Shown: positions 12,289-55,550, counted from the stretch's first letter. The stretch: 64,000 bases of DNA from an uncultured virus (IMG/VR IMGVR_UViG_3300029967_000119) (IMGVR_UViG_3300029967_000119), one strand, 5' to 3'. Made by a program: numbers and translations. The notes: generated by a model from the sequence alone, not told the origin.

Positions 12289-12657
12289 CTACTTCTTGTC
12301 TTCAAACTTGATCTCCTTGGCAAGGACCTCAGTGATGAGTGAGAGGTTCTCTTTCACCTGGCTGTAGATGTCAACTTTGACATCCACGCCTTCCTTAGGT
12401 GGCCAAGTAGACACTATCATCTCATACTCACACTTGCTCCACCAACGATACTGTGCTTCACGGTTCACCCATGCTTCAAGCTCTTTCATTGTGGAAGGCT
12501 GTGGCAGACTTTTGTTTGATGCAGAGTCAAATCCCCAATATGCTTTCTTCTTGCCTGCATTGTGCTTCCAGGTATCAGCAAGAGGCTCTATGACATCAAA
12601 TGGCTCAGGCTTAGAAGCATTGAATGGCCAATAGAATACATTGAACTTGTGTTTCAT
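12289..12657 (-). CDS. hypothetical phage protein
   Basis: 122-aa ORF, motif YRWWSKCEYEMIVSTWPP...KVDIYSQV. Confidence 0.75.
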   Translation of the reverse strand: MKHKFNVFYWPFNASKPEPFDVIEPLADTWKHNAGKKKAYWGFDSASNKSLPQPSTMKELEAWVNREAQYRWWSKCEYEMIVSTWPPKEGVDVKVDIYSQVKENLSLITEVLAKEIKFEDKK

Positions 12658-12700
12658 GATTTTATGTCTTTAAAGGTCAAACTTGTCCTGTCTTTCAAAA

Positions 12701-12729
12701 ATTATAAGGCAAGAACAGAAGAAAGTCTT
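12701..12729 (-). promoter_or_regulatory. sigma70-like promoter AAGACT-N17-TATAAT
   Basis: Minus-strand sequence upstream of gene 12657; same pattern precedes the tRNA and tmRNA. Confidence 0.5.
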
Positions 12730-12743
12730 TAGAGAAGAGACTA

Positions 12744-12784
12744 AAAAAATAAGGATTACTTAAATTAAAAGTTTAAGTAATCCT
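12744..12784 (-). terminator. intrinsic terminator downstream of the tRNA gene
   Basis: 13-bp perfect stem AGGATTACTTAAA/TTTAAGTAATCCT followed on the minus strand by TATTTTTTT. Confidence 0.8.
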
Positions 12785-12799
12785 CATTTTTAATAAATG

Positions 12800-12892
12800 C
12801 GAGGGTGCTACGATTCGAACATAGATCTATGGTTTTGGAGACCATCTTTACGGTTTTGAAGACCGTTGTCTTGCCAATTAGACGACACCCCC
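12800..12892 (-). tRNA. atypical 93-nt tRNA-Trp-like gene with two tandem anticodon arms: UCA (UGA suppressor) and CCA (Trp)
   Basis: Minus strand: GGGGGTG TC GTCT-AATTGGCA-AGAC A ACGGT-CTTCAAA-ACCGT AAAG ATGGT-CTCCAAA-ACCAT AGAT CTATG-TTCGAAT-CGTAG CACCCTC G; 7-bp acceptor, 4-bp D stem, canonical T loop, G73 discriminator, CCA end not encoded. Confidence 0.92.
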
Positions 12893-12910
12893 ATTTTGTA
12901 AACTTCTATT

Positions 12911-12938
12911 ATTATAAAAGAACTCTTCTAAATGTCTA
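12911..12938 (-). promoter_or_regulatory. sigma70-like promoter for the tRNA, TAGACA-N16-TATAAT
   Basis: Minus strand TAGACAtttagaagagttctttTATAAT ending 18 nt before the tRNA 5' end. Confidence 0.55.
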
Positions 12939-13830
12939 TCTTACGTTTTAATTTCCAGCCATCTTTTAAGAAATTATCAAGATCTTTTTTATAGACCATC
13001 TTAGATATATTATCTTTATGTATCCACGCTTTTCCTTGGGCCGCTTCTATTACTTTATCTGATGCTGGAAGATATCTACCCTTCTTTCATCCTTCATTTT
13101 CTCATAAAGCTAAGTCTTCTTTCTTTATCTTCTTGTTTTCTTTTCCTTTATTGACTCAACATGTACCTCATTGTGAATTTGTTTTTCCTTGTTGATGATT
13201 AGTCTTTAAAAAAGTCTCGTGTTGTTTCTTCTTTGTTTCTTCTGAGTGCTTTCTTCCAACTCAGACATGTTTTAATTCTCCACTAATATATCTTGGGTCA
13301 TCAACTTCTACAAGAAAATGATTGTTATTTTTATCTTTAACTATAAGACGATGACCATCTGTAAATTCTCCATTAAGATATCTAGGGTCATTTGAATCTA
13401 TTAATCTATAATTTCCATCTTTATCTTTGACTTGTTTATATCCCTTCAAAAGAGACTTGTATTTTTTGTTTTTATTAGATCGAAACTCATCACAAGAAAT
13501 CAGCTTAATCTCATCTCCTTCTTTCACCCAAGTCATCCCAATGTTTCCTCAACAATCTCCACCTAATCTCATATTATAGCAGTTCTTGTCTTCAACTAAA
13601 GTTTCATTCACAACTTCAGCCTCATACATTGATGCTTCTTTTCTTGTCTTAAAAAACTTCAATATCTCTTTTGAAAAATTCTCAATCCCATATCTTTGAT
13701 ATGCTTCATGAAGTCGAAGCCCAGATCCCATATATCCATCTTCTAGATCATCTGTTGAATGAATCCCAAAATAAAAATGCCCATTGACTTTGTTTGAAAT
13801 CTTATAAAAATAATTATATTTCTTTTTCAT
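12928..13830 (-). CDS. GIY-YIG (Seg-like) free-standing homing endonuclease with NUMOD-like repeats, 300 aa with six TGA=Trp
   Basis: YFYKISNKVNGHFYFGIHST...YMGSG...YGIENFSKEIL...YNMRLGG; frame continues through TGA at 13549, 13261, 13168, 13156, 13102, 13087 to TAG 12928; includes GRKHSEETKKK and GKTNSQWGTCWVN. Confidence 0.88.
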
Positions 13831-23132: not shown

Positions 23133-23153
23133 ATATAGTTCCTCCTTCCTTAG

Positions 23154-28041: not shown

Positions 28042-29022
28042 TTAGATGCTTTGTCTTTCTTTATAAGATGAAGCTGAGAGATAGTCCTCTACAGCTTTGA
28101 TGCAATCTTGGTTCTTTGATGAGAAGATTTCAATAAAGTTGAGGTTGTTCTCTCTTGCAGTCTTCCTCTTCAGTGGGTCTATGGTTGTCCAAACTTCTAT
28201 GAAGGTCTTGTACATTGGATGTGAAGTCGCTTTGCTTTCCAAGAATGCAAGGTGTTCTTGGTCTTCTTGTGAACTCTGATCATATGGATGAGACTGATGT
28301 GATGCAAAGCCTTGGACTTCAATGAAGAGATCTAATGGCTTGACATAGAAGTCACAGTTGAAAGGATACCTCTTGTCATCTTTGTATTGATACATGACAT
28401 TGTCTTTGCCGAACTTCTCTTCAAGCCACTCCTTGAACTCAACTTCAACTTTAGATGAAGAGAAAGTGTGTCTTGCCTTCTTAGTCTGATAGATTTTCTC
28501 TTGAGCTTGCTTAGAGCCGCCACCATTCTCAACACCATATTTCTTCAAGTTTGTGAGGCGTGACTTCTCTCTGACTTCTGGGTCTTGCTGTGAGAATTCA
28601 ACACCATAATGCTTGAAAGTTGTCTCTCTCACTTTCTTCTTTCCATAGTCAGAAGCATAGACATTTCTTGCACCAAACTTCTTCTCACAAGTGTTCCCAA
28701 GTTTTTCTTGTCATATCCTGTTGCCTTCTGGAGAATGCCTGCACTTGTTTGAGCAAAACACACTTGGGTATTTGCAGAATGAATAGCCTTTGCCTCAACC
28801 ATTGTATGGAATTCAGTTGCCACAAATGCAACATCTTGGTGCTTCTTCTATGTGATAACAGATTCGATACACAATCTCATCAACTTTCATGTCTGGCTTG
28901 TCATGTCATCTGTTCATGAGCCATTCATATAAGCTTGTATCTTGAGCTAAAGTCTTGTTATATTTTGGATTGAAGATGTGATAGCTCTTTTTGTTGTTAT
29001 CTTCATCTAAGAAAACCTTCAA
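28042..29022 (-). CDS. free-standing endonuclease (Zn-finger, KYGVEN repeats, C-terminal PD-(D/E)xK/Vsr-like domain) with four TGA=Trp
   Basis: Frame of track ORF 28042-28632 extends upstream through TGA 28711, 28795, 28813, 28906; PRCCICG, FCSNKC, YPFNCDFY...FIEVQG; start uncertain (TTG 29022, or ATG 29041 with a 1-nt offset). Confidence 0.75.
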
Positions 29023-36850: not shown

Positions 36851-39800
36851 ATGGCAAACTCGCTCAGCAACATAAAGATTGCTTCAGGTGTAGTGAAAGA
36901 CTACAATGCTGATGTTGCTTCAAAGGTGGTGTCAGACAAGATTGAAGAGTCTATAGACAGCTTCCTTGGACCGTTGTCTGACACAGTGTCAAGCGACTTG
37001 GCTCCTGTGCTGAGTGCACTCAAGAAAGTCAGGGCAGGTGCAGAGGCTGCAAAGAAGGTTGGTTCTCTTGTAGAGCAAGCTAGCAACTTGACGATTGTGC
37101 CAAAGATGAGTGCAGGATCAGCAATGACAAGTGTACTCACTACAGTCCAGCAGCAGATATGAGCTAGGTTTGAAGAGCTCAAGAAAGAGTGGTTCAAGCT
37201 CAAGGAGAGTGTCAGGAATGTAGGGTCTCCAGCACTAGACACAATCATCGACTCTACAACAGAGCTCATCAAGAGCACCATAATCAAGGTAGTAGACGAG
37301 CAAGTCAGGAAGGAGACTGGGTACTCTCCAATAGAGTCATACTACTTGTCCCAGAAAGCAATCAACTTGTACAAGACTTGGAGAGATGAAAAGGAAGCAG
37401 AGCAAGGAGAGAAAGACATTGAAGAAGCTTCTAAGACATTGCCAACTACAAACATGGAGGATCAAGGCAAGTCTGTGGAAGACACTAAGGAGAAGCTCAA
37501 GGCTTGGCTTGATGAGCATTCTGATGCACTCTACAATGCATTCTTCCTCATTATGCTGAGGGATGCTGTGAGCCCACTCACTGACTTGCTCCAGCAGAAG
37601 ATGAACTTGTCTCCTGGCAGGCTGCTTGCAATCATACAGAGCTTGAAAGACTTGACTTCAATGCTAGATGACCTTGGTGTCACATCGGCTGCAGAAGGAG
37701 CAAGTGATGAGATCAATGCATATGTGGTAGAGCTGAAGACTTTGAAGGAGAGCAAGCAGTCTAGCAAGAGCTTTGAGCTGCAGATTGTCGAAGGCACTTC
37801 TGGGAAGCTCAAGCTTGTGATGAATGCAGATCCAAAAGAAGAGAAGTCTTCATTATACAAAGCATTGAAGGCAAGCAACTTGTTCAGTGCTGACACAATG
37901 CAGGCAATCATCAAGGATGCTAAGTCTGCATATAGTTCTGGAAGTGGCTCTGGCAACTATCCAAGCAAAGGAGACTCAAGTCTCATCTATGACATTGAGT
38001 TTGCATTAGGTGCTGGCACATCGACAGAGCATGTTGAGGAAGCTCCATCTGCTGATGTTGGGCAAGTCTATGAAGAAGTGAGCACAGAGCAAGGCAAGAA
38101 GGTGCTCCCACTGTTGAAGACGATTATTGCAGCAATCAAGGCGTTGCTTCCATCTCTTGCAGCTATAGCTGTGCTGCTTGACAACTACAAGAAGAACAAA
38201 GAGTGGCTCAGAGATGATGCAAGGCAGAACAGCGACATGTTCAAGAAGAGAGCAGGTGAAGCAGCTGGGTACAACAGAGCAGAAGATGTGTCTGGGATGA
38301 ACATCTATGCTGTGCGGACAGAGAGGTGCAAGGCACTGCTCAAGTCTGCAATCGATGCAGAGCCGACAGACCAGATGGTGATTGATGTTCAGCAGACTGC
38401 AAAGTTCATCAAGAAGCTAGATGCTGCAAACATCCCATCTACAGACCTTGATGAGGCAAAGCCAACAAAGATCCTCATCCAGACAGATGGCAAGCTTGAT
38501 GGTGACACTGAAGGGCTCTCATGTGTCGTGCTCAAGTACAGAGGAGAGCTGCTCTGGTCTGACAGCGACAGAGATGAGCTGCCATCACAGATCATGAGAG
38601 GCAATAGAGATCATCCATGCTGTCCATGGATAGATGCAAGCTTTGGGTGCATTGCATCTGGAAGTGGGAGCGGTGGTAGTGGTGGCAGTGGCAGTGGCTC
38701 TAGCAGCTCAGATGAAACTAGTAATGAGAGCACAAAGATTCCAGAAGTCTACACTGACGAGATGGATGGGGCGCAGATGTTCAACACAGACTCTCTCATT
38801 GCACTCTGTGACATTGGAGATCCAACTTCACTTCCAGATTGGGAAGATGTGCTTTCTGGCTTAGATGATGGAAGTGACAATGACAATGACAATGACAATG
38901 ACAATGACAATGACAATGACAATGATGTATCTTCAACAACCGACAGCAATGTCATCAAGTCAAGGAAGTGCATCATTGAGTTTGCTGATGACTGCAAGCT
39001 GTATGACAAAGAGCCTTATGAGTGGTATGTGCAGCCTGGTGATGTGATAGACAACAGCACATTCATTGCCAAGTGTGTGCAGGACTACATCTGGAAAGAT
39101 GTCAGGTCAATCTTCACGACTGGCATTGTGGAAGAGATCAACTTTGACACAGGCAAAGACTACCACATGGCGTACCAGAAGTGTGGTGCAAACAGACATA
39201 TAGTGCTTGACAACTACCAGTATGGCACAGACATCAATGTAGATGTGTCTGTGCTTGAAGAGATAGAGACCAAGTTTGGAGTGGAGGCAGAGCTGTCTAT
39301 GCTCATTGCACACAACTTGTGCTATGCTGTGCTGCCACAGATTCTGATGCGAAGGCACTACACTGACCATACAGAAGTCCTTGGTGTTGCAGAGTACTTT
39401 GGGCGACCTGATGGGCAGCAGATCTATGAAGAGTGAGAGAAGCATGTCGAGAAGACTGTAGATAACTTCATGGGAAATGAAGACATATCTATAGGTGCTG
39501 ACAGGATAAGAGCTACCAATGGAGACTCTTCTATGCTCTCAGATCTTGGCAAGAAAGCAATAGATGCAAAGAAGAGGTTCATGCATGGGAAGCATGAATG
39601 GGGAAATGCAGAGTGGGGCATCATAGACTTGTATGAGAACTATGTGCAGACTCTTGACAAGTGTGAAGGAGACAATGAGGCATTCAGGGACTGCTGGCTG
39701 CTTGGCACATGGTACTACTTGAAGCTCATAGGCAGAGTGCAGACACTCATGGGAGATGAGTGGTCACTTGAGTACTACAACTTGCTGTCTGACATCACTA

Positions 39801-41185
39801 CAAGGCGCAATAACTATGAGCATGTCTCTATCAGCACAATCAAAGACTACATCAACAAAGAGGCTAAGCCACTCTTTGACAAGCACAAGTATAGAGATGG
39901 TGTTGTGAAGCATCTTGATGATGCATTCCCTGAAGGTAGAGCATCATTCACAGACATACACACTTGGTGCTGCGAGCATGCGACAGATCCAGATGATGAG
40001 GACAACAAGCTGCAAGCAATCACCAACTTGTACAAGTACTATGCAGACCACAAGGATGAGTACAAGCATGACAGCATCTATGACACTACAAGCATCCCAT
40101 GGCTTATGGCATACACTACATTAGAAGGCAATGTCTATTATGTCGACACAAGCCTCAATGCGATGCACTACTTCACAGATGCAAACAAAGATGTCTATGA
40201 CTATGTTGGGAGAGACATCAGAGACACTTATGACATCTACAAGCTGACACGGGTTGAGTGGTGGCGGCTCTCTCAGTTCTGGGACAAAGTGTTGGTGAAG
40301 TACAAGACGACATATGACTTGGCCAGCTTGCTAGAGCACCTTGATGAGTATGCTGACAGCTTGAGCCTCTATGCTGAATGGCCGCAGAAGTCAGAGATTG
40401 CAATAGATGGAGTGAACTATGACTACTTCTTCTTTGACAACTATGACTACTGGAAGTATGAGGCAGACAGGATGGCAGATGACCCAGAAGATGGCACAGC
40501 AGCTGATGCTGATGGAGTGACTGCACCTGAGCAGCCATCTGAAGTAGAAGCTCCTAGTGAAGGAGATGCACAGGCATCATTTGACAACAAGGGACTTGAT
40601 GACCAAGACATAGACCAAGTCTACAAGCCAGAGACACAGATCACAGACACTAAGTACTGGGTGAAGTACTTTGGGCTTGCTACTATGCTCTCATTGTTGC
40701 CGATGTACTGAGCTCCTGGACTCATACTCCCGACAGGCACAATCATCAAGCTGCCTGCTGTGTTCATTGCTCTGAAAGCAATCCACATCAAGGCACTTGA
40801 CTTGCTGCTTGTGGTTGGGCTCTCAATCAGAGGCATTGCCATACTGCCAATCTTCTTGTATGTCAACTTGTCATCCAATGACTTGAGCTTGCTCTTTCCA
40901 CTCACTATTGCTCTCAAGCAAGTGAAGGCGCTCTGGGATGCAAACATAGAGAAGACTGAGAACATTGTGCCAGATGTCGCAGATGCACTCATCAACAAGC
41001 TCTACAGAGAGAATGAGAAGCTCAAGAAGAAGAACATGGAGATTGACATACAGCTAGAAGAGATGAAGACAATCTCGTGGCCAGGATACCAGCAGCTCCA
41101 GACTAAGCTCAAAGATGCAGCATTGGGTGTAGGCACAAGGCTGAAGATAGTTCGTGGAGAAGACATATTGAAGACACAAAAATAG
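36851..41185 (+). CDS. very large hypothetical (probably virion-associated) protein, 1444 aa with three TGA=Trp
   Basis: Track ORFs 36851, 37346, 39470 and 40760 share one frame, separated only by TGA 37160, 39434, 40709; ends TAG. Confidence 0.85.
38876..38923 (+). repeat. (GACAAT)8 in-frame microsatellite encoding (DN)8
   Basis: Eight perfect hexamer copies. Confidence 0.95.
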
Positions 41186-41198: not shown

Positions 41199-41858
41199 AT
41201 GGATGAGTTTCTGATCAAGACTCGCAAGGCAATGCTAGAGAACAACAGCTTGTTTGAAGACTATGCTTACAAGTACATAGTTGAAGACATCATGTTCAAG
41301 GCTGGGAAGATCTACAATGGCTTGAGCAATGACCCAAAGCAAGTCGCTGAAGTGAAGTGCCCACTTGTGCCAGGGAATGTCTACACTTTCAAGTATGTGG
41401 CAATTGCAGACAAGTCAAAGCCAATGGACCAAGACCAAAAGAACTATGACACATTGCCAGTTGTGCTCTGCACAGAGGTGCAGCAAGACAAGATCAGAGG
41501 CATCAACTTCAACCTGTGCTCTCGCACTCTGAAGACTGGCATCTTGAATGAGCTCCAGAATGTGGACCCAGACTACTACTATGGAGATGCAAAGAGCTCA
41601 GGGGTCTTGAAGGGAAGCCAAAATGTGATAAAGATGTTCTTGTCTAGTGACATGACATCTAAGTTCATCCAGCTAGTGTCTTCAAAGTACAAAGTCTCCT
41701 CACAAGAGCTGCTTGTGAGGAGCTACAAGATAGATTGCATCAAGTACTTGAAGCTCATTGACTTGAGCTTGTGGAAGTACATTCCGTTCTTGAGATACAA
41801 GTCTACGCTCCGTGAAGATGTGCTCAAGACAATCATGAGCAAGATGCAGAAGTCCTAG
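41199..41858 (+). CDS. T4 gp2-like DNA end-protector protein
   Basis: PGNVYTFKY...YDTLPVVL...GINFNL pattern. Confidence 0.6.
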   Translation: MDEFLIKTRKAMLENNSLFEDYAYKYIVEDIMFKAGKIYNGLSNDPKQVAEVKCPLVPGNVYTFKYVAIADKSKPMDQDQKNYDTLPVVLCTEVQQDKIRGINFNLCSRTLKTGILNELQNVDPDYYYGDAKSSGVLKGSQNVIKMFLSSDMTSKFIQLVSSKYKVSSQELLVRSYKIDCIKYLKLIDLSLWKYIPFLRYKSTLREDVLKTIMSKMQKS

Positions 41859-44800
41859 AACATGTTGTAAGGCTGCTTGCAGCGCTCACGTGATGCAGGA
41901 TCCTCTAAGTTGAAGTAGAGAGTGTCAAGTGTCTGTGACATGTTGTCTCTGATAGAAGGTGCGCGGAGCATGAGCACATTGGTCGTGCCATAGTCACTGT
42001 TGTGCAAGATGCGTGGATAGATGTTGTATGTGAATGTGTAAGGCACCATGTTGTGTGTCTCTCCATCAGAAGACCACTTCTTTGCACCATATCTCTCAAC
42101 AACTTCTTCTGCATACTCGCTAGAGTACATAGAGAGCCGGTCTACAAGTGCTTCACCTGCTTCATTGATCCACTTCTCATATGGCTTGCCATCATCATAG
42201 ACTGAATACCCAGCTTTCTCAGCATAGTCATATGCATCAGCGACAAGCTCTGTGTCAAGCAAGCTGTAGAATGAAGGCACAATGTCAAATGCATAGAAGC
42301 TCTCTTCATTCTCAAACACTGGACACTGCCAAGCAAGGTCATAGACAAGCGTCCTGAAGCACTCACCTTCATTAGGCATGTTCTCCTTCTTGTTGTCTGG
42401 AAGCTTCACAGTCATTGAGTCTCAGTCAACTAAGATATACTCATCATTCTTGGCAACTGTCTGTGAGAGTGGAAGCGCTTCATCTTCAGAGTACTGGCTT
42501 GTGTCTAGTGCAGCATCAAGGTACTTGTAGCCGTTCCCATATGTTGATGTGACGCCTCTGATTGCACTTGACTTAGTTGAGTTAGGATCGACTTCAAACT
42601 CATAGTTCCAGACTTCCATTGAAGTCAAGAGCGAAGCATCACGCTCTGTGATGTCAAGCTCAGTCTGGAGCATCAATGGAGCATTGTAGTTGAACTGGCT
42701 GTATCTGTCTGCCTCATACAGCTCATTGTTGTAGTAGAAGGTAGAGACATCATCTCTCTTCTTAGCTTTCATGAGAGTTGAGTTGTATGTGACAGCAAGG
42801 TATGGACACTCATCAAAGTGTGAGAGTGCTGAGTCTGACTCAAACGGCCGCCAGAGCAGCTCTTCTTGGTTGTTCCAGTTCACCACATTGTACTGCATTG
42901 GGTCATTGTACTTTGTGGTCGCTCTCTTGAATGGGCTAGAGGAAGGCATGTTTAGCAAGGTCTCAAATGGGTCTTTTGCAAACACAGACACCGCCTTGAT
43001 GTCATCTTGCAAGAAGCCTCTCTTGAGCTTCCATGCATGCCAGTTCACAAACTGATACACCGCCCTAGACATAGAGTTTGTGCACTTTATGTCTGAGTAG
43101 AGCTTGTATGTCGACTTCTCACCATAGAGCTTTGACCCAACTCTTATCTCATCTGTTGACCCATAGAGCTTCACACCAGTCCCACTGTAAGTGTGTCCAA
43201 CTTCAAGGTCTTTAGGAGAAGCAACAAATGCCATTGGGTTGATGTAGAATGACTGGAACCCTGTCATCATGAGTGGCAGATCATACTCAGTTATCTGTCC
43301 TTTGTTCACCACAGATGTCAAAAGCTCTACACCATTGTCTAAGTCATCACAACAGTCAAAGAGTGCCCCATTGTAATGGATCTTGATGTCAGTGACTTTG
43401 AAGTTCATCGTGAGCATGCTAGGCATTGGGTTGCCTTCTTCAAAGAGCACTCTGAGCTTCACATGGTCTTTGTTCAACATGTCTGGGCTGAGGCCACACA
43501 CATCAATCTTGAATCCTTTGTAGAGGCCAGACCAGTTCATGCCAGGGTTTGCAAACACATTCTGGAGCAATGAGCTGTCAAGCATCACAACTTCCTTTCC
43601 AGACTTTGTGAAGTATGACAAGCTTGAGTCCTCATACAAGTCATATCCATTTGCATGCATGTAGCTTGAGTCAAGGTCATACCATGTAGATGGGTTGTCT
43701 GCTAGAGCTGCTGCATTTGTCTCGATCTCCGCTACAGTGCTTGAGAGGCTGATGCTTCCATCTACTACCTTGACATCAAGAGAGATGTAGTTGTCTATCC
43801 AAGCGGATGTGTCAACTGATGGGTCTTCATATATTGATGTGTCATCTGGGACAATCTTGAGAGTAGGCATCACATATGTCTGGAGAGTTGGGTAGTTGTA
43901 CCCAACAAGCATCTCATAGTTAGTCCAGTCTGTCTCTATAGTCAAGTCGACTGACACATCATCTGTGTACTTAGTCCAAGCTTGCTTGCTGAAGCCATCT
44001 ACAGACACATCAATGAAGAACTGTAGTTGGTTAGCAAGGATGCCAGCATCATCAGAGTTGGACTTCTCAAGGTCAACTTGTGAGTTGAATGTGACAAGTG
44101 ACACATCTGGGATGACACGTGGGTCCTTGAATCCTGGCTGCGTGATCTCATAGTATGCTTTGCTTGTAGTGAGACCATCATCTTTAGTGTATACAACTGT
44201 CACTACGACATTGCGAGAAGATGTAGCATAGAGTTGGTTGGCTTGCTTCAATATGAAGAAGTCGGCTGGTGACCCTTCAGATGCAGAGCATGCACTCTTC
44301 ATGTACTCATCAAATGTGCTGTAGTCGACATCATTGACATTCGGCAAGTTGTCATCAACTGTGAATGTGCACTCACACATGCTAGAAGCTGTGCCAGAGA
44401 TCCAAGATGCAAATGTGATTGTGCTCTGCCCAGAAGCTATAGCTGAGGAGACATCTACACTATTGATGTAGACACCAAGGATTGAGGATCCTTCATCTGC
44501 TATGATGCTGAGCTGTAATGAGTCATTTGCTTCAGCAGTGAGCTCTCCAACTGCCTTGAACTTGATTGGTGATGTTGCATCTACCATCGTGACATCTGAT
44601 GACTTGGTGATTCCATCTGGCTCTTCAATAGTGACATAGACATCTAAGTCAGTCTCATCCTCTGCATTGTTTGTGAGTGACACAACTGTAGGTTGTCCAA
44701 AGTACTTTGCAGATGACATTGTGAGTGTATATGGGATGACCTCGTACTTGTGTCCTATAGAAGACTCAAGCCTGCCATTGCTGCTGAACTTGACATCAAG

Positions 44801-46462
44801 AGCAACAAAGTCATCTGCTGGACCCATGTGCTCTACAGTAGATGCAGATGAGTCTGGATTGTTGAGGTCAATGACATAAGCACCAACTACAGAAGTTGTG
44901 TCATCTTTAGGCGATGCGATGAACTTGCTCTTGTCTATTGTGAAGCCATACTTAGCTGATATGTAGTCACCACTGAAGTCATCATCTGTGAATGTGTATG
45001 AGTAGCCATTGTAGAGCCTGAGCTCTGATGGTGCTATGACACCAGAGAGCTCAAAGTTTGTGATTGCACTCTCCTTGAACCAAGCAGAGCTGAGCTTGAG
45101 TGCATCTTGAGCGGCAAGTGTAAAGTGCTTGCCAGCTATCACATGGCAGCTTGCATCTTTGTCAGTATGCATCTGCAATGCCATGTTGCTCTCTTCTGCA
45201 TCCAAGAAGGCAAACTTTGTGTCTTTGTCTTGGTTGAACTCAGAGATCTCTACAAGGTAGTCAGAGTCTGGAAGCACTTCATTGAAGTTCTGGTAGAACA
45301 CTTCCTTCAAGTCACCTTCTACACCCTCATACTTGCTCAATGTCAAGCTCTTTGCAAGAGAGCACCTCACTACAGAGCTGTCAGTTGACTCAGCAAAGTT
45401 TGACATCTGGAGTGGATCATTGACTGTAAGGTGGTCAAGCACATAAGAGAAGCTCTTCCCGACCATCTCTGCTGTCACCACAATCATGTGGGTGTACTTC
45501 ATGCCGGTCGTGTTGAAGACATCTTCATCAAGGTACACATAGATGACATCTCCTTCTACATACTTGCTTGACAAGTTTGTAGGCACTTTCATTTGTGTGT
45601 AGTCATAGTTGGTCCACTTCACAAAGTTGAAGTGCTCGGTGTCTTGTGGGTTGTCTAGGTTTGCCTTGGTCAGCCTAGAGTAGTCATCATCATTGGTGTA
45701 GTATGCACTGTCTGCTGTCTTTTGGACAGTCTTCTCTAAGTCAGAACTGAAAGTAACATCAGTTGTGTCATGCTTGTAAGACACTCCATTAGAGTCTCTG
45801 AGCACATCTTCATCATCTTCAGAGATGTATTCTATAGCAGACCTGACATATGAGAGTGGATCACTCTGTGGGTTGACATAGTCTTCTCTGTCATGATACA
45901 TCTGCACGCTGCCATTTCACATGACAATGTCTACACCAAATGCAGAGGTCTCTTTCTGGTCCAAGTCTGGGTTATGCTCTGCTGAGTACTCATATGGCAC
46001 AGCTGACATGTCCACAAGGATGTTAGTCTTAGGCACATACATCAAGGTAGATGAGTCTCACTTAGTGAGATACAGCTTGTCATATGTATATGTGAATGAG
46101 CTGTTCTTTGTTGTGTCTTCAACATTCAAGCTCACATTCTCGAGAGAAGAGTAGTTGGCATTTATATCTGCAAAGTCAACACTCTCTTTGTCTATGTTAG
46201 CAGATGAATTGACTTTGTCACCATACTTGTCAAGATATTGGATGACACCAGTGTAGTACTTCTTTCCATTGAATGACTTTGCATCTATTGTGTTCACATT
46301 CACTGCATCATGCATGAATGTGTCAATAGGGATGTAGTTTGAGTCAAAGAAGTCATTGATGAATCCAAAGTAAATGCCTGTACCAGCTTTGCCAACAGAG
46401 CCATTGTTGCCTGCAACTCCTACTGCTGGAAGCCCATGATACACTTGTGACAACTCTTGCAT
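41855..46462 (-). CDS. very large acidic beta-rich putative virion protein, 1535 aa with three TGA=Trp
   Basis: Track ORFs 46058-46462, 42422-45907, 41855-42415 are one frame joined by TGA 46058, 45917, 42422; ends TAG. Confidence 0.85.
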
Positions 46463-47517: not shown

Positions 47518-50500
47518 TTATCTGGTGATTTTGAATGTTGGATAGAACTTCCTATTTGTGTAGTCTGAAATTGTCACTGTCAATATGATTTCATCATTGA
47601 TGTTCTCATACTCCGACTCATAGTTATCTACAACATTCCAGTTAGCATCAAAGTCTTCTGGGAATGTGTAACTCAGCTCAAAGTCTTGGTTAGTCTGTCC
47701 ATAAGTCTTAGAGTAGAGAGTGAAGTTCTTCTTGTCTGTTATGTCAAAGTACTTGAGCAATGACATCTTGATGTAGTTCTTGATGTATACATCATTATTG
47801 ATTGTGAAGAGCTCACTCCAGTTGTCTGTGAACTTCGGACATGACTCCATGAAGTATTTATAGAGTATCTGAGTAAGGTTCAGCCTGAGCTCTACTGCCC
47901 TAGTGTTTGCAGAGTTGACATTGTAAGTCTGGTCTACATATGAGGAAGTCACATATGTAGGGTATTCCCAGTCAGTTATGTCAACATAGTCATCATTCAG
48001 TACGATGCACTTAGAGCCAAACATAGAGCGGTCTTCTACACCTGGCACGTATCCATTCACATAGCTCCAGGTGTTATCATCAGTGTACTGCCTATAGTAG
48101 TGGTAGTCTCAGTTAGATGCAACAAGTGACCTAGAGTTGAGCATAAAGTAGTTGATGCTTGTAGATGTGTCTGAAGCTGTGAAAGTCTTCATGTTCCATG
48201 GGTTCTCTATAGCTTCAATGCTCTTCATGTGTGTGTTAGAGAGAGTGAAGTTAGAAGAAGCTGTGAGGATGAGAGAAGAGTCTTCATGAGTCTCATAGTT
48301 CACCAAGTTATAAGTCTGGACGTCAAAGTAGCCAGCATTGTACTTGATGTGTGATGGTGTAGTCGTGGTGATTATGATAGGAATGTAGTCTTCATCTATG
48401 TGCTCTACTGTCACACCATTGTTGATGATGTACAAGTCAAATGACTTTGTGAAGCTCTCTTTGTATCTCTCTAAGATATCTCCATTGCTTGTGTCTATGG
48501 CTTCAGATGGAGCGGTGACAGAGTATGAAGTCTGTCCAATGTAGCCACTCTCATTCTTCAAGTTGAGAGCATTGTCAGACACCATACATTCTCCATCAGA
48601 AGTGTTCACTATGTTGTACTTCTCATCTTCAAGATAGTTGATGAATATCTTCTGATTCCAGAGTGATGTGTCTTCAACATTGAACCAAGCGGTGTAGTTG
48701 TCTTTGTTGAGCACTTCTTCTGTGCTTGCATCTGCATCAAGGTAGTCAATCTCTATTAAAGTCTCTGTCTCACTGAGCAACATGTCTTTAGAGTTGCTCT
48801 TGACTACCTGAGCAAAGAGGGTTGTTGAGTCACCAAATGCATGCTCAAAGTCTATGTAGTATGGGTTCTTATGCCAAGCATACTGGTCACTCACAACTTC
48901 AAATGATGTCTTGCCAGACTTGATGATTGTGTCATTCTGGTTGCAAGTCTTGGTCTTGAAGTTGTGGTTGATGAACAAGATGAGCTTCTCTTCTACAGAG
49001 ACATACATCTCATTGTTAGTTGCTTCATCATAGTCATTCACAATGAAGATCTCAAAGTTGTTGTATTCATTGAGTCGTATTGTGTTGATGTACTTGTTGT
49101 CTGTGAATGAGAATGACACCTTGATTCCATAGAAGATGCATTCAAGTGTCTCTGTGTACTTGTTGTAGTAGACATTAGTGCTTGACTTGATGTTGCTTTC
49201 TGCAAGGACTTCCCTAATCTTGTATCCACCCAAGATGGCTTCTTTGATAGAGATTGCTCCTGCACTTGTGTCTATTGTGTCATCAAGGTCACATGACATG
49301 TACCATGGGCTTGTCTTCTTGTCAGATGTCTCAACAAACATCCCAGATCCAGAAGCAATCTTCTCTTGGTAGCTTGAGTCAAGAGCTGCATTCACATCAA
49401 GTGTCTGGTTTACATCATAGTAAGTTCCAAGAGCATTCCACTGTGTGCAAGCTTGCACTGTGATTGGAATCTGCAAGTCACTGTTGTAGATGTCATTCGG
49501 GTCTGCATAGCAGTTCATTGCCTTGAGCTCTGGTGAAGTCCAAGAGAATGCTGTCACTTCATCATTGCTAGAAGTGAGCATCTTCAGGATCACATCACTA
49601 TCAACTGTGAGACTCAGCCTTGTGAGCTGTGTTGATGAGTCTCCATTGTGCAAGACCATGCTCTCATCAATGTAGAATGAAGTGCATGGCAGCATGTCAG
49701 ACTCTTCAAAGGCCCCAGATGAGAGAGTGTAGATTGTGTTAGTCACAAGCATGCCCGGTGCACCATCAAATGTGATGACATCACCAGCATTCCAACTCAT
49801 TGATGCATCATTGCTTACAAGTGTGGTCTCTACATAGTTGATGCGAGTGTCAATGTCTTTGAAGTTGAGCATGCCCATCAATGAGAAATCATGTGCAAGA
49901 GGAGTGTGCAATTTCATGTGGATTGTGTCAGACAATGCATATGGCATGCTGACCATGCCTCTCTCACAGTCAAGAGGAGACATGATGATGTTGCATTCCT
50001 TGTCAATCTCTTCTATCAGCTCTGCTTCTTGCAAGTCATCAAGTGAAGGTATGTTAGAGTAAGCCTTGTATTCATTGATCTTGAAGTCATTAGCTGGCCA
50101 ATACCCATCAGAGCACTTTCCAAGCAAGACTTTGTACTGGTCTTTGAATGCTCAGTCAAACTGGTACATGTGCTCTTCTATGTCAATGAACTTGACAATG
50201 CTTGTAAGTCTCCATCCCAAGATCTCAAACCCATAAGGAGCAAACACCTTGATGTCATCTGAGTAGTATGATGTGCTGTAGCAAAGTGGGTGCAGCTCAT
50301 AAGTCAAGTCTTTCTTGAAGTATGAGATGTAGTCAAGCCCACAGTCTGCGCTGTAGTCCACTACAAGATGGTCTTCATCTGTCCAAGTGAGAGAGGCATC
50401 AAGTATGTCTGATGTGATGTGTTGAAACCAGGTGTTCTCAAAGTTAGAGATGATAGCTATCTGGTCTTCTGTCACATCACTCACATAGAAGTCTGAGTTG

Positions 50501-52692
50501 AACTTCTTGATGCAAGCCGCAATCCTCTTCAGCTGCTCTTCAAGTGGGGCCTGCTTAGAGTGATCTTCTAAGTCCTGTGTGTAGAATGCAAGCCTGTACA
50601 CTGTCGGCCATTCTTCATCCTTGCCTATTGCATTGTTCTTGTCACCATAGAGATCATTGTCTGTGTCATAGAGAGCTTTGCTGATCTTCAGCGTCCTGTT
50701 CTCATTGAACAAGTCCTCTTCACCTTCAATGACTCCCATTGCAACCTCAGTGAGCTGGTTGGAGAACTGGTAGTCTTCCATCTTCTCAACTTTTGGAGGC
50801 TCAGCAAGCAAGTCAGTGTGGTGGTAGATTGAAGGGTCTTCAAGCACAGTCTCAAGATACTCTTCAGTGCTCCTGAAGATGAGCTCTTTCTTTGGAAGTG
50901 AAGACCTCTTGTTGATCTGCACATATGGGAAGATGCAAGACTCTGTGTTGGCAAGCCGTTCATCATTAGATGCAATGATCTCATAAACATATGAGTGCTT
51001 GCTCTTGTCAGACCATGTGAAGTGGTCTCTCACACAGATCCTGAAATGCTCACCATAGTGGATTGGCTCTGTGAAGTGCATCGTCACAAATGACTTTGCA
51101 TCTGTCAAGTCTGTGAGCTCTTCACCTCTGGCATTGATGACATTCTTGTTTGGCTTGTTGATGACTCTCTTTTGCAAAGCATTGTTGTAGTCACCTATCT
51201 CTTTGAGCCTAGAAGCGGAGTTGTTGTCAACTTCAAAGAACATCCTGTCTTGCCAGCTCTCTTCCTTGAGCACATCTTCTATCTTGTCGCTGTCATCTAC
51301 AAGGTTCCAGCCACTGTCATACTTCTCAAGAGAGACCTTCACATCATTGCTTCTCTTGATTACCGCATTATACTTCCAGATTGCATTCTCCTTGAGATAG
51401 AGCCCAAAGTACTTGTGCATCTCATATGTCTCTGACTCTGGATCATTGAACATGAACTCAAGGTTGAGGATGTTAGGATAGATGAGGTTGTTGCGCTCAA
51501 AGCCATTCACAAGGAACATGTCATACCGTTCCTGTGTAGCTGTAGGGTCTGTGAGGATCTTGTTGGCAAAGTAAGATGTCTCTTGCTTTGATGTGATGAC
51601 TCCCCTGTCAAGTGCAATGCCAGTCCACACATTTGTGCCAGTCTTGTACTTGCTTGAGACATCTTCTGGGTCTCTGTCTTGCTCTATGAACTGCAAGCTG
51701 ACTGGAGCGACTATGTCATTGAGCTCCTTTGCATAGCTGTTGATGTACTTGCCAACAGCCGTCCAGTTGCGTAAGTCAAAGCACTTAACCATCTTGCCAT
51801 TAGCGAGCAATGACTTGAAAGTCTCATTGTCATCAAGAGTACCACTGTATGTGCTTGCATTGAAGTGCTCATCTACTCTGAAGATGCAGAAGAAGTCTGG
51901 CACCACATCATTGACATAGAGAGGTGCAAAGACCCTCATGTTCTCTGTGTACAAGAAGTCATCATTAGTCTCAGCCCCATACTCATATATAGTCTGGTAT
52001 TGGTCGGAGTAGTCAACAGAGTTCTTTCTTGGGTTGAGTGCACCATCTGGCAGCTTGTATATCTCACCAAGTGGAAGAGATGAGAACACTCTCTTCACAT
52101 CATGTGGATAGTCACCAGTGTAGTCTACTTCCTGGTGCCTGTAGTTGTTGTTGCTCAAGAGATGAGAGACCTTGATTGTGTCAAGGTACATGTTGCCATT
52201 CTCTGTGACTACAAGCTTGATGTTGCCAGTGAGCTTAGGATTCGTCTTTGCAAGAGCAAATGAAGCAAGCTTTGTGTTGATTGGCACAGACTGGTCATTC
52301 TCATACCACTTGTATGAAGGTGTGACTTTCCTCAAGATGAGGGTGTCTTGCTCCAGCTCTTGCCCATCGACTTCAAGTGAGAGCTTGAATGTCAGAGACT
52401 CTGAGAATGGCTCAAGCATGTTGAAGAAGAACAAGAGCTTGTTGCCATCATTAGAGACACTAGCAGTGAAGTCATGAATCTTCCATGATGCAAGCTGTCC
52501 ATTCACAATGTTTCGAATGACATTGACATTTGCACCATTGACTAAGAGCTTGCTCTCAAGCCAAATGGCAAGCTCATCTGTGAGCTCATTGCTCAAGCTC
52601 AAGATCATCTTTGCAGACTTTGCATCTGGCTTGTAGAGCTTCTTTATGTCAATGAGCAATGTGTCATTTGCTCTATCTAAGAAAAACGTCAT
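47518..52692 (-). CDS. very large putative virion protein, 1724 aa with two TGA=Trp
   Basis: Track ORFs 50152-52692, 48109-50127, 47518-48060 joined by TGA 50152 and 48109; ends TAA. Confidence 0.85.
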
Positions 52693-52695: not shown

Positions 52696-54183
52696 CTACT
52701 TTGCTTCTTTTGAGACAGATCGACTATATGAGTCTATGAATGAATCCCAGTTGTTCTTTGCATCTTCCCAAGTTCATCTTCTCTTGTATCCTGCATCTTG
52801 CATCTCATCATACATCTTGTTGAAGTCTTTGTATGATGGCTTTGATGATATGCTGTCTTCATTTCCAATGTAGGAGCCATCAAGTGCCTTTATCATGACA
52901 ATCACAGCGGCCCATGTCTGTGGCACTGTGTTCACCATGACTTCTATGAAGTAGTTCATGGTCTCACCAGCTGTGAACTCTCTCAAGAACTCAGGCTGGT
53001 CTTGCTCAACCTTGTTGTATGTTTGATTCCAGAGCTGCTTGAGCTTAGGCAAGTTGACGCGAATCTTCCTGCTGTGCATCGAAGCGGCTTTGCCAATCTT
53101 TGTGTTTGACTCCGGTGTAGAAGCTTGTCTCTCAAGCTCTGATGTGATGAATGTATTCACACTCTCACGAAGCTTGTCCATCCTAGTGTTCAGAGCTTGT
53201 GCACAGACATACTTCTCTCTTGACTTGTTGTTGAAAACTTTCTTTATGTTGTTAGAGATGCTTGACCAAATCTGCTTCCAGTCATCTTCAACATTCCCAT
53301 CATTGTCTTTGTCTTTGAGCATCTTGAATGCATCATCAATCTTGAATGGGTCTGCTGAGCTGTAGCTGTTGTCACCAACATTTGCTTGCAAGAGCCTGTA
53401 TGCTGCAGTTGTAGTCACATTGAGATACTCAAGCATGTCTTGTGCAACTTCTTTCTTCTTTGCATCAAGCTCTTCAATGCCAATGCTCTCCATCTCTTTG
53501 TCAAAGTTGTTGACCCCAGCATCACCACTACTTTCCTTGTTTGAGCGGCCACCAAGTATATCAATTTCAGCAGTCTTGTCATTCTCTAAGAGGAGCTCTG
53601 CAAGCTTGCTATATGTAATGAAACTCTCTTGGACATGTCTTCCTATTGATGCATCTTTCAATCTCCAGCTATCAATACTCCCATTCTGGTTGATTGTTCC
53701 TCTTGTGAACTTGTCTTGGTCGGGCTTTCCAACAACATTGCTCTTCACATTTTTTGAGTTCATCTCAGTGAAGAACTTCTCAATATAGTCTATCATTGAA
53801 GAGCTTTGGAACAGCTTCTGAGCATAGTTCTCAGTGTTCTGTATAGCATTCTGAGGGTCAAAGACAAAGTGGTTCAAACCAAACACCTTTCCACCACGGC
53901 TTCTGCGCACTGGCTTCATAATTTGGTTGTAGTTAGTTGGCCTCTTTATCTTGTTGATGTGGATGCTAGGCAATGCTTTGGGTGATGCAACATTTGGATC
54001 CTTAGATGCAAGAGCCTTCAGCTTTGCATCATCAGAGCTTGCAAGCACTTCAGAGTTGAGAGTCTCTCACTTGTTGTCTGGGGTATTGCAAATCACCCTT
54101 CCATTAGGATATTCATTGATTGTCTTGTTTCCTATCATCCAGCTTCCATTGCTGAACTTGACTTGTACGTTATTCTGTGCCAT
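52696..54183 (-). CDS. hypothetical protein, 495 aa with two TGA=Trp
   Basis: ATG 54183 (MAQNNVQVKF), TGA 54067 and 52774, TAG 52696 abutting the next start. Confidence 0.8.
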
Positions 54184-55531: not shown

Positions 55532-55550
55532 CTTCAATTCGAATGCCTTT

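What the first reader, a model, noticed from the sequence alone, without database searches (positions are those of the whole stretch)
12800..12892. A tRNA gene with two complete anticodon arms: UGA-suppressor (UCA) and Trp (CCA) in one molecule
Seen: an otherwise canonical cloverleaf (7-bp acceptor, 4-bp D stem, TTCGAAT T loop, G73, own promoter and terminator) carries a tandem 21-nt duplication, ACGGT-CTTCAAA-ACCGT-AAAG then ATGGT-CTCCAAA-ACCAT-AGAT. The two 17-nt hairpins (12850-12866 and 12829-12845) differ at only three positions: the wobble base (U vs C) and one stem pair changed on both sides (C-G vs U-A), so both still pair perfectly. Deleting either unit leaves a normal 72-nt tRNA. Established: G73 and the CCA anticodon are bacterial TrpRS identity elements, and UCA decodes UGA. 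Inference: in a phage that reads TGA as Trp this could be (a) a tRNA that decodes with the UCA arm while the CCA arm, in the variable-arm position, helps TrpRS charging; (b) a conformational or processing switch between tRNA-Trp and suppressor that times the code change; (c) a DNA-level switch by recombination between the repeats; or (d) a decoy loop against host anticodon nucleases. I know of no described dual-anticodon tRNA of this kind.
Basis: partly seen in the sequence, partly recalled or inferred. Interest (0 to 1): 0.97.

Follow-up and report, generated by a model that had tools for sequence, protein, structure and literature searches.

The report
Phage stop-codon tRNA with spare anticodon arm
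A large phage that writes some tryptophans with the stop codon UGA carries a tRNA that reads UGA and also bears a conserved second hairpin copying the normal tryptophan (CCA) anticodon loop, probably the handle by which the host's tryptophan-charging enzyme still accepts it.

Summary
On the minus strand at 12892-12800 lies a 93-nt tRNA. It has a 7/5 acceptor/T domain, a 4-bp D stem and G73. It carries two 17-nt hairpins: UCA at 12866-12850 and CCA at 12845-12829.

It is neither an artefact nor a one-off. I collected 35 distinct tRNAs of this build from independent viral and metagenome assemblies. All five helices covary (0 of 500 shuffles reach the observed values). In a scan that fixed only the D arm and arm 1, 28 of 28 loci had a second hairpin with a 7-nt loop NUCCAAA (one NUCCAUA).

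The window does read TGA as Trp. In-frame TGAs occur in two homing endonuclease genes and at least three giant late-type genes, several at Trp columns that are conserved or invariant in homologues. The early genes avoid them.

None of 15 related phage records encodes a TrpRS-type enzyme. Phage amber suppressors show the parallel design, a CUA arm plus a Gln CUG/UUG hairpin in 61 of 87.

Best reading: the UCA arm decodes and the CCA arm is an identity handle for host TrpRS. This is inferred, not shown.

I found no paper describing this design. Earlier notes of this scan report the same design on other DNA.

The parts
12800..12892 (-). 93-nt tRNA gene: opal (UGA) suppressor of Trp type with two anticodon-type arms; G73 at 12800; no encoded CCA end
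   Evidence: ARAGORN; Rfam tRNA 53 bits; five-arm minimum-free-energy fold; family covariation
12850..12866 (-). Arm 1, ACGGT-CTTCAAA-ACCGT. Anticodon UCA at 12859-12857. One nucleotide (A26) separates it from the D stem, as for a canonical anticodon arm
   Evidence: Sequence; aligned as the anticodon arm by the Rfam tRNA model
12829..12845 (-). Arm 2 (pseudo-anticodon arm), ATGGT-CTCCAAA-ACCAT. CCA at 12838-12836. It sits in the variable-arm position between linkers AAAG and AGAT
   Evidence: Sequence. In 35 family members loop positions U33 35/35, C34 34/35, C35 35/35 and A36 33/35 are kept while the stem covaries
12911..12938 (-). Promoter-like site TAGACA-16-TATAAT, ending 19 nt upstream of the tRNA and lying inside the 3' end of the endonuclease gene
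   Evidence: 11 of 12 matches. Weak evidence: site counts in the region equal those in shuffles
12752..12784 (.). 15-bp hairpin with T runs on both sides, 15 nt downstream of the tRNA: terminator-like
12928..13830 (-). GIY-YIG/NUMOD3 homing endonuclease gene (SegB/SegD-like, 300 aa) with 6 in-frame TGA and 3 TGG. It is a client of the suppressor. Together with the tRNA it forms an AT-rich island (GC 0.31 against 0.44)
28045..28980 (-). Second homing endonuclease gene (DUF7487, phrog_3339) with 4 in-frame TGA. Its paralogue at 30891-31835 has none
36851..41182 (+). 1444-codon gene with 3 in-frame TGA (codons 104, 862, 1287)
   Evidence: Homologues of 1092-1691 aa match across both tested TGA positions in one stretch. 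W in 3 of 6 and 5 of 6 homologues at these positions
41858..46462 (-). 1535-codon gene with 3 in-frame TGA (codons 135, 182, 1347)
   Evidence: Collinear with one 1672-aa protein from N-terminus to C-terminus
47521..52692 (-). 1724-codon gene with 2 in-frame TGA (codons 847, 1528)
   Evidence: Five full-length homologues (1731-1848 aa). W1528 is an invariant Trp column
54173..55537 (-). Probable further gene with 3 in-frame TGA (read-through continues a repeat-bearing protein). Not checked against homologues

Best explanation
This is a working phage tRNA that inserts tryptophan at UGA.

Arm 1 (anticodon UCA) sits where a normal anticodon arm sits and reads UGA on the ribosome.

Arm 2 lies in the variable-arm position. 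It is kept by selection as a copy of the tRNA-Trp anticodon stem-loop (loop N-U-C-C-A-A-A). Together with G73 it serves as an identity handle: the host tryptophanyl-tRNA synthetase, which reads C34-C35-A36, still has a cognate CCA loop to bind even though the decoding anticodon has changed.

The tRNA lets the phage express genes that carry in-frame TGA: homing endonuclease genes and large late-type genes. Early genes use the standard code.

Shown here:
- the structure;
- its conservation and covariation;
- TGA at Trp columns;
- the absence of a phage TrpRS in relatives;
- the parallel Gln design in amber suppressors.

Inferred: that arm 2 contacts TrpRS, and that arm 1 is the only decoding arm.
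For: (1) Structure. ARAGORN, Rfam and the minimum-free-energy fold agree.

(2) Family. 35 distinct sequences were aligned (A1). 96.7% of cells are paired. 19 of 25 pairs show changes on both sides. 0 of 500 shuffles reach any of the measures. In arm 2, 3 of 4 counted pairs change on both sides.

(3) A scan that specified only the D arm and arm 1 found 28 of 28 viral loci with a second hairpin. Of the 26 unique sequences, 25 hold TCCAA and one TCCAT.

(4) TGA means Trp in this window.
- Endonuclease gene: the six TGA fall on columns holding W in 14/14, 12/14, 11/14 and 9/14 homologues, and Y/F in the other two.
- 1724-aa protein: W1528 is invariant in 5 of 5 full-length homologues.
- 1444-aa protein: W1287 is W in 5 of 6 homologues and W862 in 3 of 6.

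(5) A complete 135.8-kb relative carrying the same tRNA type has a tail-fibre-like ORF in which TGA aligns with TGG in an internal repeat.

(6) 0 of 15 phage records with this tRNA hold a PF00579 (TrpRS/TyrRS) match. Nine of these records are estimated at least 90% complete. The controls were positive in 14 of 14 genomes.

(7) Generality. Among 87 unique phage tRNA(CUA) with long variable regions, 61 hold T[CT]TGA, the Gln anticodon CUG/UUG between U33 and A37. Control 5-mers occur 0-1 times.

(8) The E. coli TrpRS co-crystal paper reports base-specific reading of C34, C35 and A36, and of G73 (PMC12135181, passages).

(9) The Borges et al. preprint states as an open question how host synthetases charge phage suppressors (10.1101/2021.08.26.457843, passages).

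(10) An engineered pseudo-anticodon arm in the variable-arm position raised charging by a HisRS carrying an added anticodon-binding domain (PMC7590224, passages).
Against: No experiment shows charging, suppression or contact between arm 2 and TrpRS.

A handle is not obligatory. Ordinary single-arm tRNA(UCA) are common: 45 of 56 unique tRNA(tca) in the metagenome sample are 80 nt or shorter. Seki et al. report that 9 of 31 phage tRNA(UCA) gave at least 50% of wild-type yield in E. coli extract, and that 13 of 13 analysed inserted Trp (PMC12636597, Results part 1).

The TrpRS structure paper says C34 is held only by two backbone hydrogen bonds and by size, so U34 may be tolerated.

Geometry argues against a simple handle. 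The tip of a variable arm is far from the place of the anticodon. TrpRS has one anticodon site per subunit. The engineered HisRS case needed an added binding domain.

The window's tRNA has G1-C72, whereas 30 of 35 family members have A1-U72.

One G73 tRNA(UCA) with a long variable region (L218) lacks a CCA hairpin.

Arm 1 was fixed by my search patterns, so its invariance is not independent evidence.
Confidence: 0.6

Rival explanations
1. Two-shape tRNA. Either arm can stack under the D arm. With the CCA arm in the anticodon position the RNA looks like tRNA-Trp to TrpRS. With the UCA arm there it reads UGA on the ribosome. The same RNA might also read UGG through the CCA arm.
For: Each arm keeps one canonical junction. 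Arm 1 follows the D stem after a single nucleotide (A26). Arm 2 is followed by a 4-5-nt linker like a normal variable loop. Deleting either 21-nt unit leaves a normal 72-nt tRNA. This reading avoids the geometric problem of a variable-arm tip reaching the anticodon site of TrpRS.
Against: Arm 2 often departs from a decoding-grade loop. Position 32 is G in 9 of 35 members, and the closing pair is not a standard pair in 7 of 35. The Rfam tRNA model places arm 1 as the anticodon arm. Most relatives carry an ordinary tRNA-Trp(CCA) gene beside it, so UGG reading by this RNA is not needed. A switch by cross-arm pairing has no covariation support: 361-465 of 500 shuffles reach the observed values.
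Confidence: 0.15
2. Arm 2 serves a partner other than TrpRS. Candidates are a host or phage tRNA-modifying enzyme, a phage factor that times suppression, or a bait for a host nuclease that cuts tRNA-Trp anticodon loops.
For: The conserved loop (UCCAAA) shows selection for recognition by some partner, but the identity of that partner is not shown. The window encodes an RNA ligase and a HAD_SAK_2 RNA-repair domain, hinting at conflict over tRNA cleavage.
Against: These models do not predict that the spare loop should match the amino acid of the reassigned codon in both the UGA/Trp and the UAG/Gln cases. They also do not explain why a bait should be fused to the suppressor. I know of no Trp-specific anticodon nuclease (recalled, not searched).
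Confidence: 0.15
3. A neutral or broken product of a tandem duplication, or an assembly merge of two alleles.
For: The window's two arms differ at only 3 of 17 positions. Raw reads could not be examined.
Against: 35 distinct sequences from independent assemblies keep both hairpins with compensatory changes. The window's 14/17 arm identity is matched by two other members. The window holds client genes with in-frame TGA at Trp columns.
Confidence: 0.03
4. A selenocysteine tRNA, as ARAGORN labels it, or a class II tRNA charged with serine because of its long variable arm and G73.
For: UCA anticodon, long variable region and G73. ARAGORN labels it 'tRNA-SeC'.
Against: The acceptor/T domain is 7/5, not 8/5. 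The D stem has 4 bp with an 8-nt loop, not 6 bp with 4 nt. No SelA, SelB or SelD family appeared among the ORFs scanned. TGA falls on Trp or aromatic columns, not on Cys/Sec or Ser columns. The variable arm has a conserved 7-nt loop, unlike Ser or Sec variable arms.
Confidence: 0.03
5. A DNA-level switch: recombination between the two 21-nt units toggles the gene between tRNA-Trp(CCA) and suppressor(UCA).
For: Direct repeats of 21 nt, 16 of 21 identical, in the window.
Against: No collapsed form was seen: 28 of 28 loci with the family's D arm and UCA arm keep arm 2. Arm identity in most members is 8-13 of 17, too low for recombination.
Confidence: 0.02

Closest known systems
Phage-encoded opal suppressor tRNA(UCA) of TGA-to-Trp recoded phages (Borges et al., bioRxiv 10.1101/2021.08.26.457843, passages read; Seki et al., PMC12636597, outline and Results part 1 read)
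   Same: A phage-borne tRNA with a UCA anticodon. In-frame TGA at Trp positions, mainly in late genes and in homing endonuclease genes. Early genes are in standard code. Reliance on the host synthetase when no phage TrpRS is present.
   Different: The passages I read do not mention a second anticodon-type arm. Here the variable region is a conserved 17-nt hairpin displaying CCA. Recoding in this window is sparse: about 21 TGA sense codons against about 315 TGG in crude code-11 ORFs.
Engineered tRNAs with a pseudo-anticodon arm in the variable-arm position (Mukai 2020, PMC7590224, passages read)
   Same: A second hairpin in the variable-arm position displays the cognate anticodon, so that the synthetase can be recruited independently of the decoding anticodon.
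   Different: That system is synthetic. It is built on an allo-tRNA chassis, uses His, and needs a HisRS fused to an extra anticodon-binding domain. Its effect was modest. This one is natural, on a 7/5 Trp-type body, presumably with unmodified host TrpRS.
Class II tRNAs (Ser, Leu, bacterial Tyr) and tRNA-Sec
   Same: A long variable arm that serves as an identity element for the synthetase. ARAGORN files this tRNA under SeC for that reason.
   Different: Their variable-arm loops are short and not conserved in sequence. Here the loop has 7 nt with U-C-C-A-A conserved. The variable region is 25 nt. The body is Trp-like (G73, and an arm sequence like the tRNA-Trp anticodon arm).
Anticodon-arm mimics in mRNA leaders that bind their synthetase (E. 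coli thrS operator; review PMC9976931, passages read)
   Same: An anticodon stem-loop copy outside a decoding context is read by the cognate synthetase.
   Different: Those mimics sit in mRNAs and repress translation. This one is built into a tRNA and would promote charging.
[quoted passage not shown]
   Same: The wording: a long variable arm is read as a second anticodon arm.
   Different: That is a prediction for an ordinary class II variable arm. No conservation or covariation argument appears in the passages read. It proposes decoding by the second arm, not identity.

Membership tests
Phage opal suppressor tRNA(UCA), TGA-to-Trp | A tRNA gene with anticodon UCA on a phage genome | tested here: met
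   Phage context: topoisomerase II subunits, SbcCD-like nuclease, tail fibre and homing endonucleases
Phage opal suppressor tRNA(UCA), TGA-to-Trp | In-frame TGA in phage genes at positions where homologues have Trp | tested here: met
   Invariant W at HEG1 residue 225 (14/14) and at residue 1528 of the 1724-aa protein (5/5). W in the majority at five further TGA positions
Phage opal suppressor tRNA(UCA), TGA-to-Trp | Bacterial Trp identity elements: G73 as major, A1-U72 as minor | tested here: inconclusive
   G73 is present in 35 of 35 members. A1-U72 is present in 30 of 35 family members, but the window has G1-C72
Phage opal suppressor tRNA(UCA), TGA-to-Trp | Charged with Trp and suppresses UGA | not testable with these tools
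   Needs aminoacylation and reporter assays
Two-armed Trp suppressor family (UCA arm plus CCA arm) | A second hairpin between the anticodon arm and the T arm, with a 7-nt loop N-U-C-C-A-A-A and a covarying stem | tested here: met
   The window's loop is CTCCAAA.
tRNA-Sec (bacterial selC) | 13-bp acceptor/T domain (8/5) and a 6-bp D stem with a 4-nt loop | tested here: not met
   7/5 domain. 4-bp D stem with an 8-nt loop
tRNA-Sec (bacterial selC) | Sec machinery (SelA, SelB, SelD), and UGA at Sec/Cys positions | tested here: not met
   No such family appeared among about 50 window ORFs scanned with Pfam. Only 64 kb were seen. TGA lies on Trp or aromatic columns
Class II tRNA-Ser | A long variable arm with a short, non-conserved loop, G73, and serine inserted | tested here: not met
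   The loop has 7 nt and is conserved. TGA positions align with W/Y/F, and with Ser in 0 of 14 homologues at every one of the six HEG1 positions
Engineered pseudo-anticodon tRNA (Mukai 2020) | The pseudo-anticodon arm raises charging by a synthetase that binds it | not testable with these tools
   The resemblance is one of design only

The most novel reading that the evidence does not exclude
Phages that reassign stop codons have evolved tRNAs that separate 'which amino acid' from 'which codon' by carrying two anticodon arms. One arm faces the ribosome (UCA or CUA). The other shows the cognate anticodon (CCA for Trp, CUG/UUG for Gln) to the unmodified host synthetase, possibly by flipping between two L-shapes. 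That would be a general, natural answer to how a virus changes the genetic code of a cell without bringing its own synthetase. It would also be a portable module for code engineering.
Probability: 0.45. Interest if true: 0.95.

Novelty: new variant of a known kind. Interest (0 to 1): 0.88.

Why it matters
Synthetases for Trp and Gln read the anticodon, so a tRNA that reads a stop codon should be a poorer substrate. How recoded phages get host enzymes to charge their suppressors is named as an open question by the authors who described phage recoding.

A conserved spare anticodon arm would answer it and can be tested directly: delete or mutate the arm, then measure charging and read-through. 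It would add a new structural class to natural tRNAs. It would show that tRNA identity and decoding can be physically uncoupled in nature. It would also offer a design principle for suppressor tRNAs in genetic code expansion.

For annotation there are two practical points:
- These genes are currently labelled tRNA-SeC by ARAGORN.
- Their client genes are cut at TGA in public gene calls. P0131 ends exactly at such a TGA.

Tried and rejected
- **Whole genome of the window:** none is held.
- **Sequencing runs for 12300-14000:** none was listed, and no RNA holder was listed. Read laying was therefore not used, and single-molecule confirmation and transcript ends remain open.
- **Tandem Repeats Finder:** no row for the 2 x 21-nt repeat.
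- **Rfam at E <= 1 on 12400-13200:** only the tRNA. No ribozyme lies beside it.
- **Close relatives of the window's phage:**
  - tblastn of 13 window proteins against all held loci gave three weak hits.
  - The search for related loci with the 272-aa neighbour gave two loci at 36% identity over about 60 residues.
  - Whether the tRNA-endonuclease island is an insertion could therefore not be tested.
- **blastn of 12700-13900 against phage records:** only a 170-nt stretch matched, at 69-71% identity, to segB/segD-type endonuclease genes of T4-like phages.
- **Loose double-loop scan:** Only 7 of the new loci were real two-armed tRNAs.
- **Metagenome scan:** it also stopped at 120 rows. Many rows are chance matches inside coding DNA.
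- **Genome-contig scan:** 1 real tRNA among 8 pattern hits, on a 41.7-kb contig titled as a Bacilli MAG. The design is therefore essentially absent from the cellular genomes scanned with that pattern.
- **HEG2 against its paralogue HEG3:** the alignment runs across HEG2's TGA positions, but HEG3 has C, A, F and R there. This pair does not show what TGA encodes.
- **My first impression that TGA-as-Trp was confined to homing endonuclease genes** was wrong. Same-frame runs of ORFs separated only by TGA turned out to be single giant genes.
- **Literature:** searches found no description of a natural two-anticodon-arm suppressor tRNA. Passages were read in PMC7590224, PMC12636597, PMC9976931, PMC5389517, PMC7609411, PMC12135181, PMC13092985, PMC10879173, PMC10228390 and the Borges preprint. 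Supplementary tables, such as the tRNA lists of Seki et al. and Borges et al., were not opened and could hold such sequences without comment.

Full report
**1. The observation**

The minus strand of 12892-12800 reads as follows:

GGGGGTG-TC-GTCT-AATTGGCA-AGAC-A-[ACGGT CTTCAAA ACCGT]-AAAG-[ATGGT CTCCAAA ACCAT]-AGAT-CTATG-TTCGAAT-CGTAG-CACCCTC-G

- ARAGORN calls the gene tRNA-SeC(tca).
- The Rfam tRNA model scores 53 bits. It aligns the UCA arm as the anticodon arm and treats the CCA arm as an insert in the variable region.
- The minimum-free-energy fold is the five-arm cloverleaf, with z = -2.87.
- The double-arm pattern is found once in the window and in none of 100 shuffles.
- A good sigma-70-like promoter match ends 19 nt upstream. 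A long hairpin with T runs follows the gene. The promoter scan finds no more sites than it does in shuffles, so this is weak evidence.

**2. It is a family, not an accident**

- An exact-pattern scan for both arms found 14 viral contigs, all called tRNA-SeC(tca) of 94-97 nt.
- To remove the bias of that pattern, I scanned with the D-arm 3' half plus arm 1 only. All 28 loci found have a second hairpin. Of the 26 unique sequences, 25 hold TCCAA and one TCCAT.
- A metagenome scan anchored on another D-loop type (AATTGG) plus arm 1 stopped at 120 rows.
  - ARAGORN called 71 tRNA(tca) there, 56 of them unique, and 45 of those were 80 nt or shorter.
  - Of the 11 longer ones, the five with a Trp-like acceptor and G73 carry a hairpin or loop with CCA.
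  - Two further loci sharing one 99-nt sequence (L199, L251) were found by my own parser.
  - The other six have Leu/Ser/Sec-like or unclear bodies without a CCA loop.
- The 35 distinct two-armed sequences were aligned.
  - On the five-helix structure 96.7% of cells pair.
  - 19 of 25 pairs have changes on both sides.
  - No shuffle out of 500 reaches any measure, and sliding the partners drops pairing to 40-48%.
  - In arm 2, three of the four counted pairs change on both sides. The loop keeps U33 in 35/35, C34 in 34/35, C35 in 35/35 and A36 in 33/35. Position 32 is C in 25 members, G in 9 and U in 1.
  - The three inner pairs of arm 1 were fixed by my patterns, so they say nothing.
- A helix between the 5' strand of arm 1 and the 3' strand of arm 2 has no support.
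- An arm-2-anchored scan that left the arm-1 anticodon free found UCA in all 14 unique intact two-armed tRNAs. It also found four loci in which the 3' half is preceded by non-tRNA sequence, possibly intron-split genes.
- The window's arms (14 of 17 identical) are among the most alike, but two other members tie with them. The window is therefore a member of the family rather than a fresh duplication.
- Loop-to-loop distance is 21-23 nt in most members. This fits an origin by tandem duplication of the anticodon arm together with its variable loop.
- Where a canonical tRNA-Trp(CCA) gene lies next to the two-armed gene, the two bodies are only loosely alike. The two-armed lineage is therefore old.
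- In 185,579 species genomes, the pattern gave one real tRNA among 8 hits, on a 41.7-kb MAG contig.

**3. What the window is and how it uses TGA**

The window is a piece of a large phage. It encodes topoisomerase II subunits, SbcCD-like nuclease, NAD-dependent DNA ligase, RNA ligase, Clp protease, a sigma factor, a tail fibre protein, several homing endonucleases and a tmRNA.

Homing endonuclease genes:
- Directly upstream of the tRNA, on the same strand, lies a 300-aa GIY-YIG/NUMOD3 endonuclease gene with six in-frame TGA and three TGG.
- It has more than 1,000 homologues. Many of the 120 listed are about 260-300 aa.
- In an alignment with 14 of them, the six TGA fall on columns holding W in 14, 12, 11 and 9 sequences, and Y/F in the other two.
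- The gene and the tRNA form an island of GC 0.31 in a window of 0.44.
- A second endonuclease gene (28045-28980) has four TGA. Its paralogue at 30891-31835 has none.

Large genes:
- I first thought that TGA-as-Trp was limited to these selfish genes. However, runs of 'genes' in the 36-56 kb region lie in one frame and are separated only by TGA.
- Homologues show that these runs are single genes.
  - The 1724-codon ORF at 47521-52692 has five full-length homologues of 1731-1848 aa. W1528 is an invariant Trp column. Position 847 is variable.
  - The 1444-codon ORF at 36851-41182 has homologues that match across both tested TGA in one stretch, with W in 5 of 6 and in 3 of 6.
  - The 1535-codon ORF at 41858-46462 is collinear from end to end with one 1672-aa protein of a 660-kb phage record.
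  - A fourth ORF at 54173-55537 probably continues through three TGA.
- The 1-34 kb replication and metabolism part has no in-frame TGA outside the endonuclease genes.
- This is the pattern Borges et al. describe: early genes in standard code, late genes recoded, and an intron endonuclease that prefers TGA (passages).
- A complete 135.8-kb relative with the same tRNA type shows TGA aligned with TGG inside a repeat of a tail-fibre-like protein. It also has an HNH endonuclease gene with TGA.

**4. How it most likely works**

Shown:
- a conserved tRNA with a UCA arm in the canonical anticodon position;
- a second, covarying hairpin that displays the Trp anticodon loop;
- G73;
- client genes with TGA at Trp columns.

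Also shown: none of 15 phage records that carry this tRNA, nine of them at least 90% complete, encodes a class Ic synthetase, so a host enzyme must charge it.

Established: bacterial TrpRS reads C34, C35, A36 and G73 (PMC12135181).

Inferred: the second arm offers TrpRS the CCA loop that the decoding arm has lost.

The strongest indirect support is generality.
- I scanned for phage tRNAs with a CUA anticodon in the same type of arm and a long variable region, leaving that region free.
- This gave 110 loci and 87 unique sequences. Of these, 61 contain U-[C/U]-U-G-A, the Gln anticodon with its U33 and A37, mostly in a small hairpin. Related control words occur 0-1 times.
- In both reassignments known from phages, the spare loop shows the anticodon of the amino acid that the stop codon now encodes. 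Both synthetases are anticodon readers.

Against a simple handle:
- One-armed tRNA(UCA) exist and are charged in E. coli extract.
- C34 is only loosely held by E. coli TrpRS.
- The tip of a variable arm is far from the anticodon position.
- The engineered precedent needed an extra binding domain on HisRS.

A two-shape model, in which either arm can take the anticodon position, avoids the geometric objection. It fits the fact that each arm keeps one canonical junction. However, many arm-2 loops (G32, or a mismatched closing pair) do not look fit for decoding.

**5. Comparison with what is known**

- It is a member of the known kind 'phage opal suppressor tRNA for TGA-to-Trp'.
- It fails the tests for tRNA-Sec (7/5 domain rather than 8/5, a 4-bp D stem, Trp columns) and for a Ser-type class II tRNA.
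- The nearest functional analogue is Mukai's engineered pseudo-anticodon arm.
- The nearest natural analogues are anticodon-arm mimics in mRNA leaders.
- Seven full-text searches, and passages of ten papers, gave no description of a natural tRNA of this build. I did not open supplementary tables.

**6. Earlier notes of this scan**

Notes from other windows describe the same two-armed Trp suppressor on at least eight other genomes, with the same reading. Notes describe the amber/Gln analogue. These are unchecked AI notes. I tested both claims myself on public contigs and they held.

**7. Verdict**

The feature is real and conserved. As far as I could find it is undescribed. The mechanism (a synthetase handle) is the best-supported inference but remains unproven.

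This window adds three things:
- a member with very similar arms and a G1-C72 acceptor;
- a gene placed in an AT-rich island with a SegB-like endonuclease gene that itself depends on UGA reading;
- a clear split between a standard-code early region and sparsely TGA-recoded giant late genes.

Noticed in passing
window 24643-25042 (-): A phage-borne tmRNA gene (Rfam 146.9 bits) with tag peptide ADNSYALAA, in a phage that also promotes stop-codon read-through. The 260-aa ORF at 23933-24715 overlaps it and is probably spurious.
   Followed up: no
window 2816-3928 (+): An ORF fusing DAHP synthase (PF00793) to chorismate mutase (PF01817). This is an aromatic amino-acid pathway gene in a phage that adds extra Trp codons.
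   Followed up: no
window 36851-41182 (+), 41858-46462 (-), 47521-52692 (-), 54173-55537 (-): Giant genes that code-11 gene calling cuts at in-frame TGA into 2-4 pieces. A public 185-aa protein (P0131, 98% identical) ends exactly at one of these TGA, so a near-identical phage has been gene-called in the wrong code.
   Followed up: yes
window 28045-28980 (-) and 30891-31835 (-): Two paralogous DUF7487 homing endonuclease genes (34% identity) flank the topoisomerase II large-subunit gene. One has four in-frame TGA and the other none.
   Followed up: partly
window 17014-18498 (-) and 33146-33574 (-): An RNA ligase (PHA02142 OB fold plus RNA_ligase) and a HAD_SAK_2 'Swiss Army Knife RNA repair' domain protein. 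Together they may form a tRNA-repair kit.
   Followed up: no
window 22873-23933: About 1 kb without a convincing ORF in code 11 or code 4, and with no Rfam match at gathering score.
   Followed up: no
window 34170-35595 (-): The ORF at 35000-35580 has one in-frame TGA and then breaks frame before the 268-aa ORF at 34170-34976. There were no family matches. It may be a frameshifted or two-part gene.
   Followed up: partly
L414, L415, L423, L424 (viral contigs): Arm 2 plus the T arm and acceptor 3' half of the two-armed tRNA are preceded by a shared non-tRNA sequence that ends inside the arm-1 loop. This looks like an intron-split version of the gene.
   Followed up: no
last row (one viral locus among L292-L401): A tRNA of the same body type with a CUA (amber) first arm and a GTCCAAA (Trp CCA) second arm. 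It would read UAG but carry the Trp handle.
   Followed up: no
L218 (metagenome contig): A G73 tRNA(UCA) with a long variable region but no CCA hairpin. It is an exception, or a different kind of tRNA.
   Followed up: no
L006, L009, L011 (viral contigs): Phages with the two-armed UCA tRNA also carry an ordinary-length tRNA(CUA), labelled 'tRNA-Pyl' by ARAGORN. They hold suppressors for two stop codons in one tRNA cluster.
   Followed up: no
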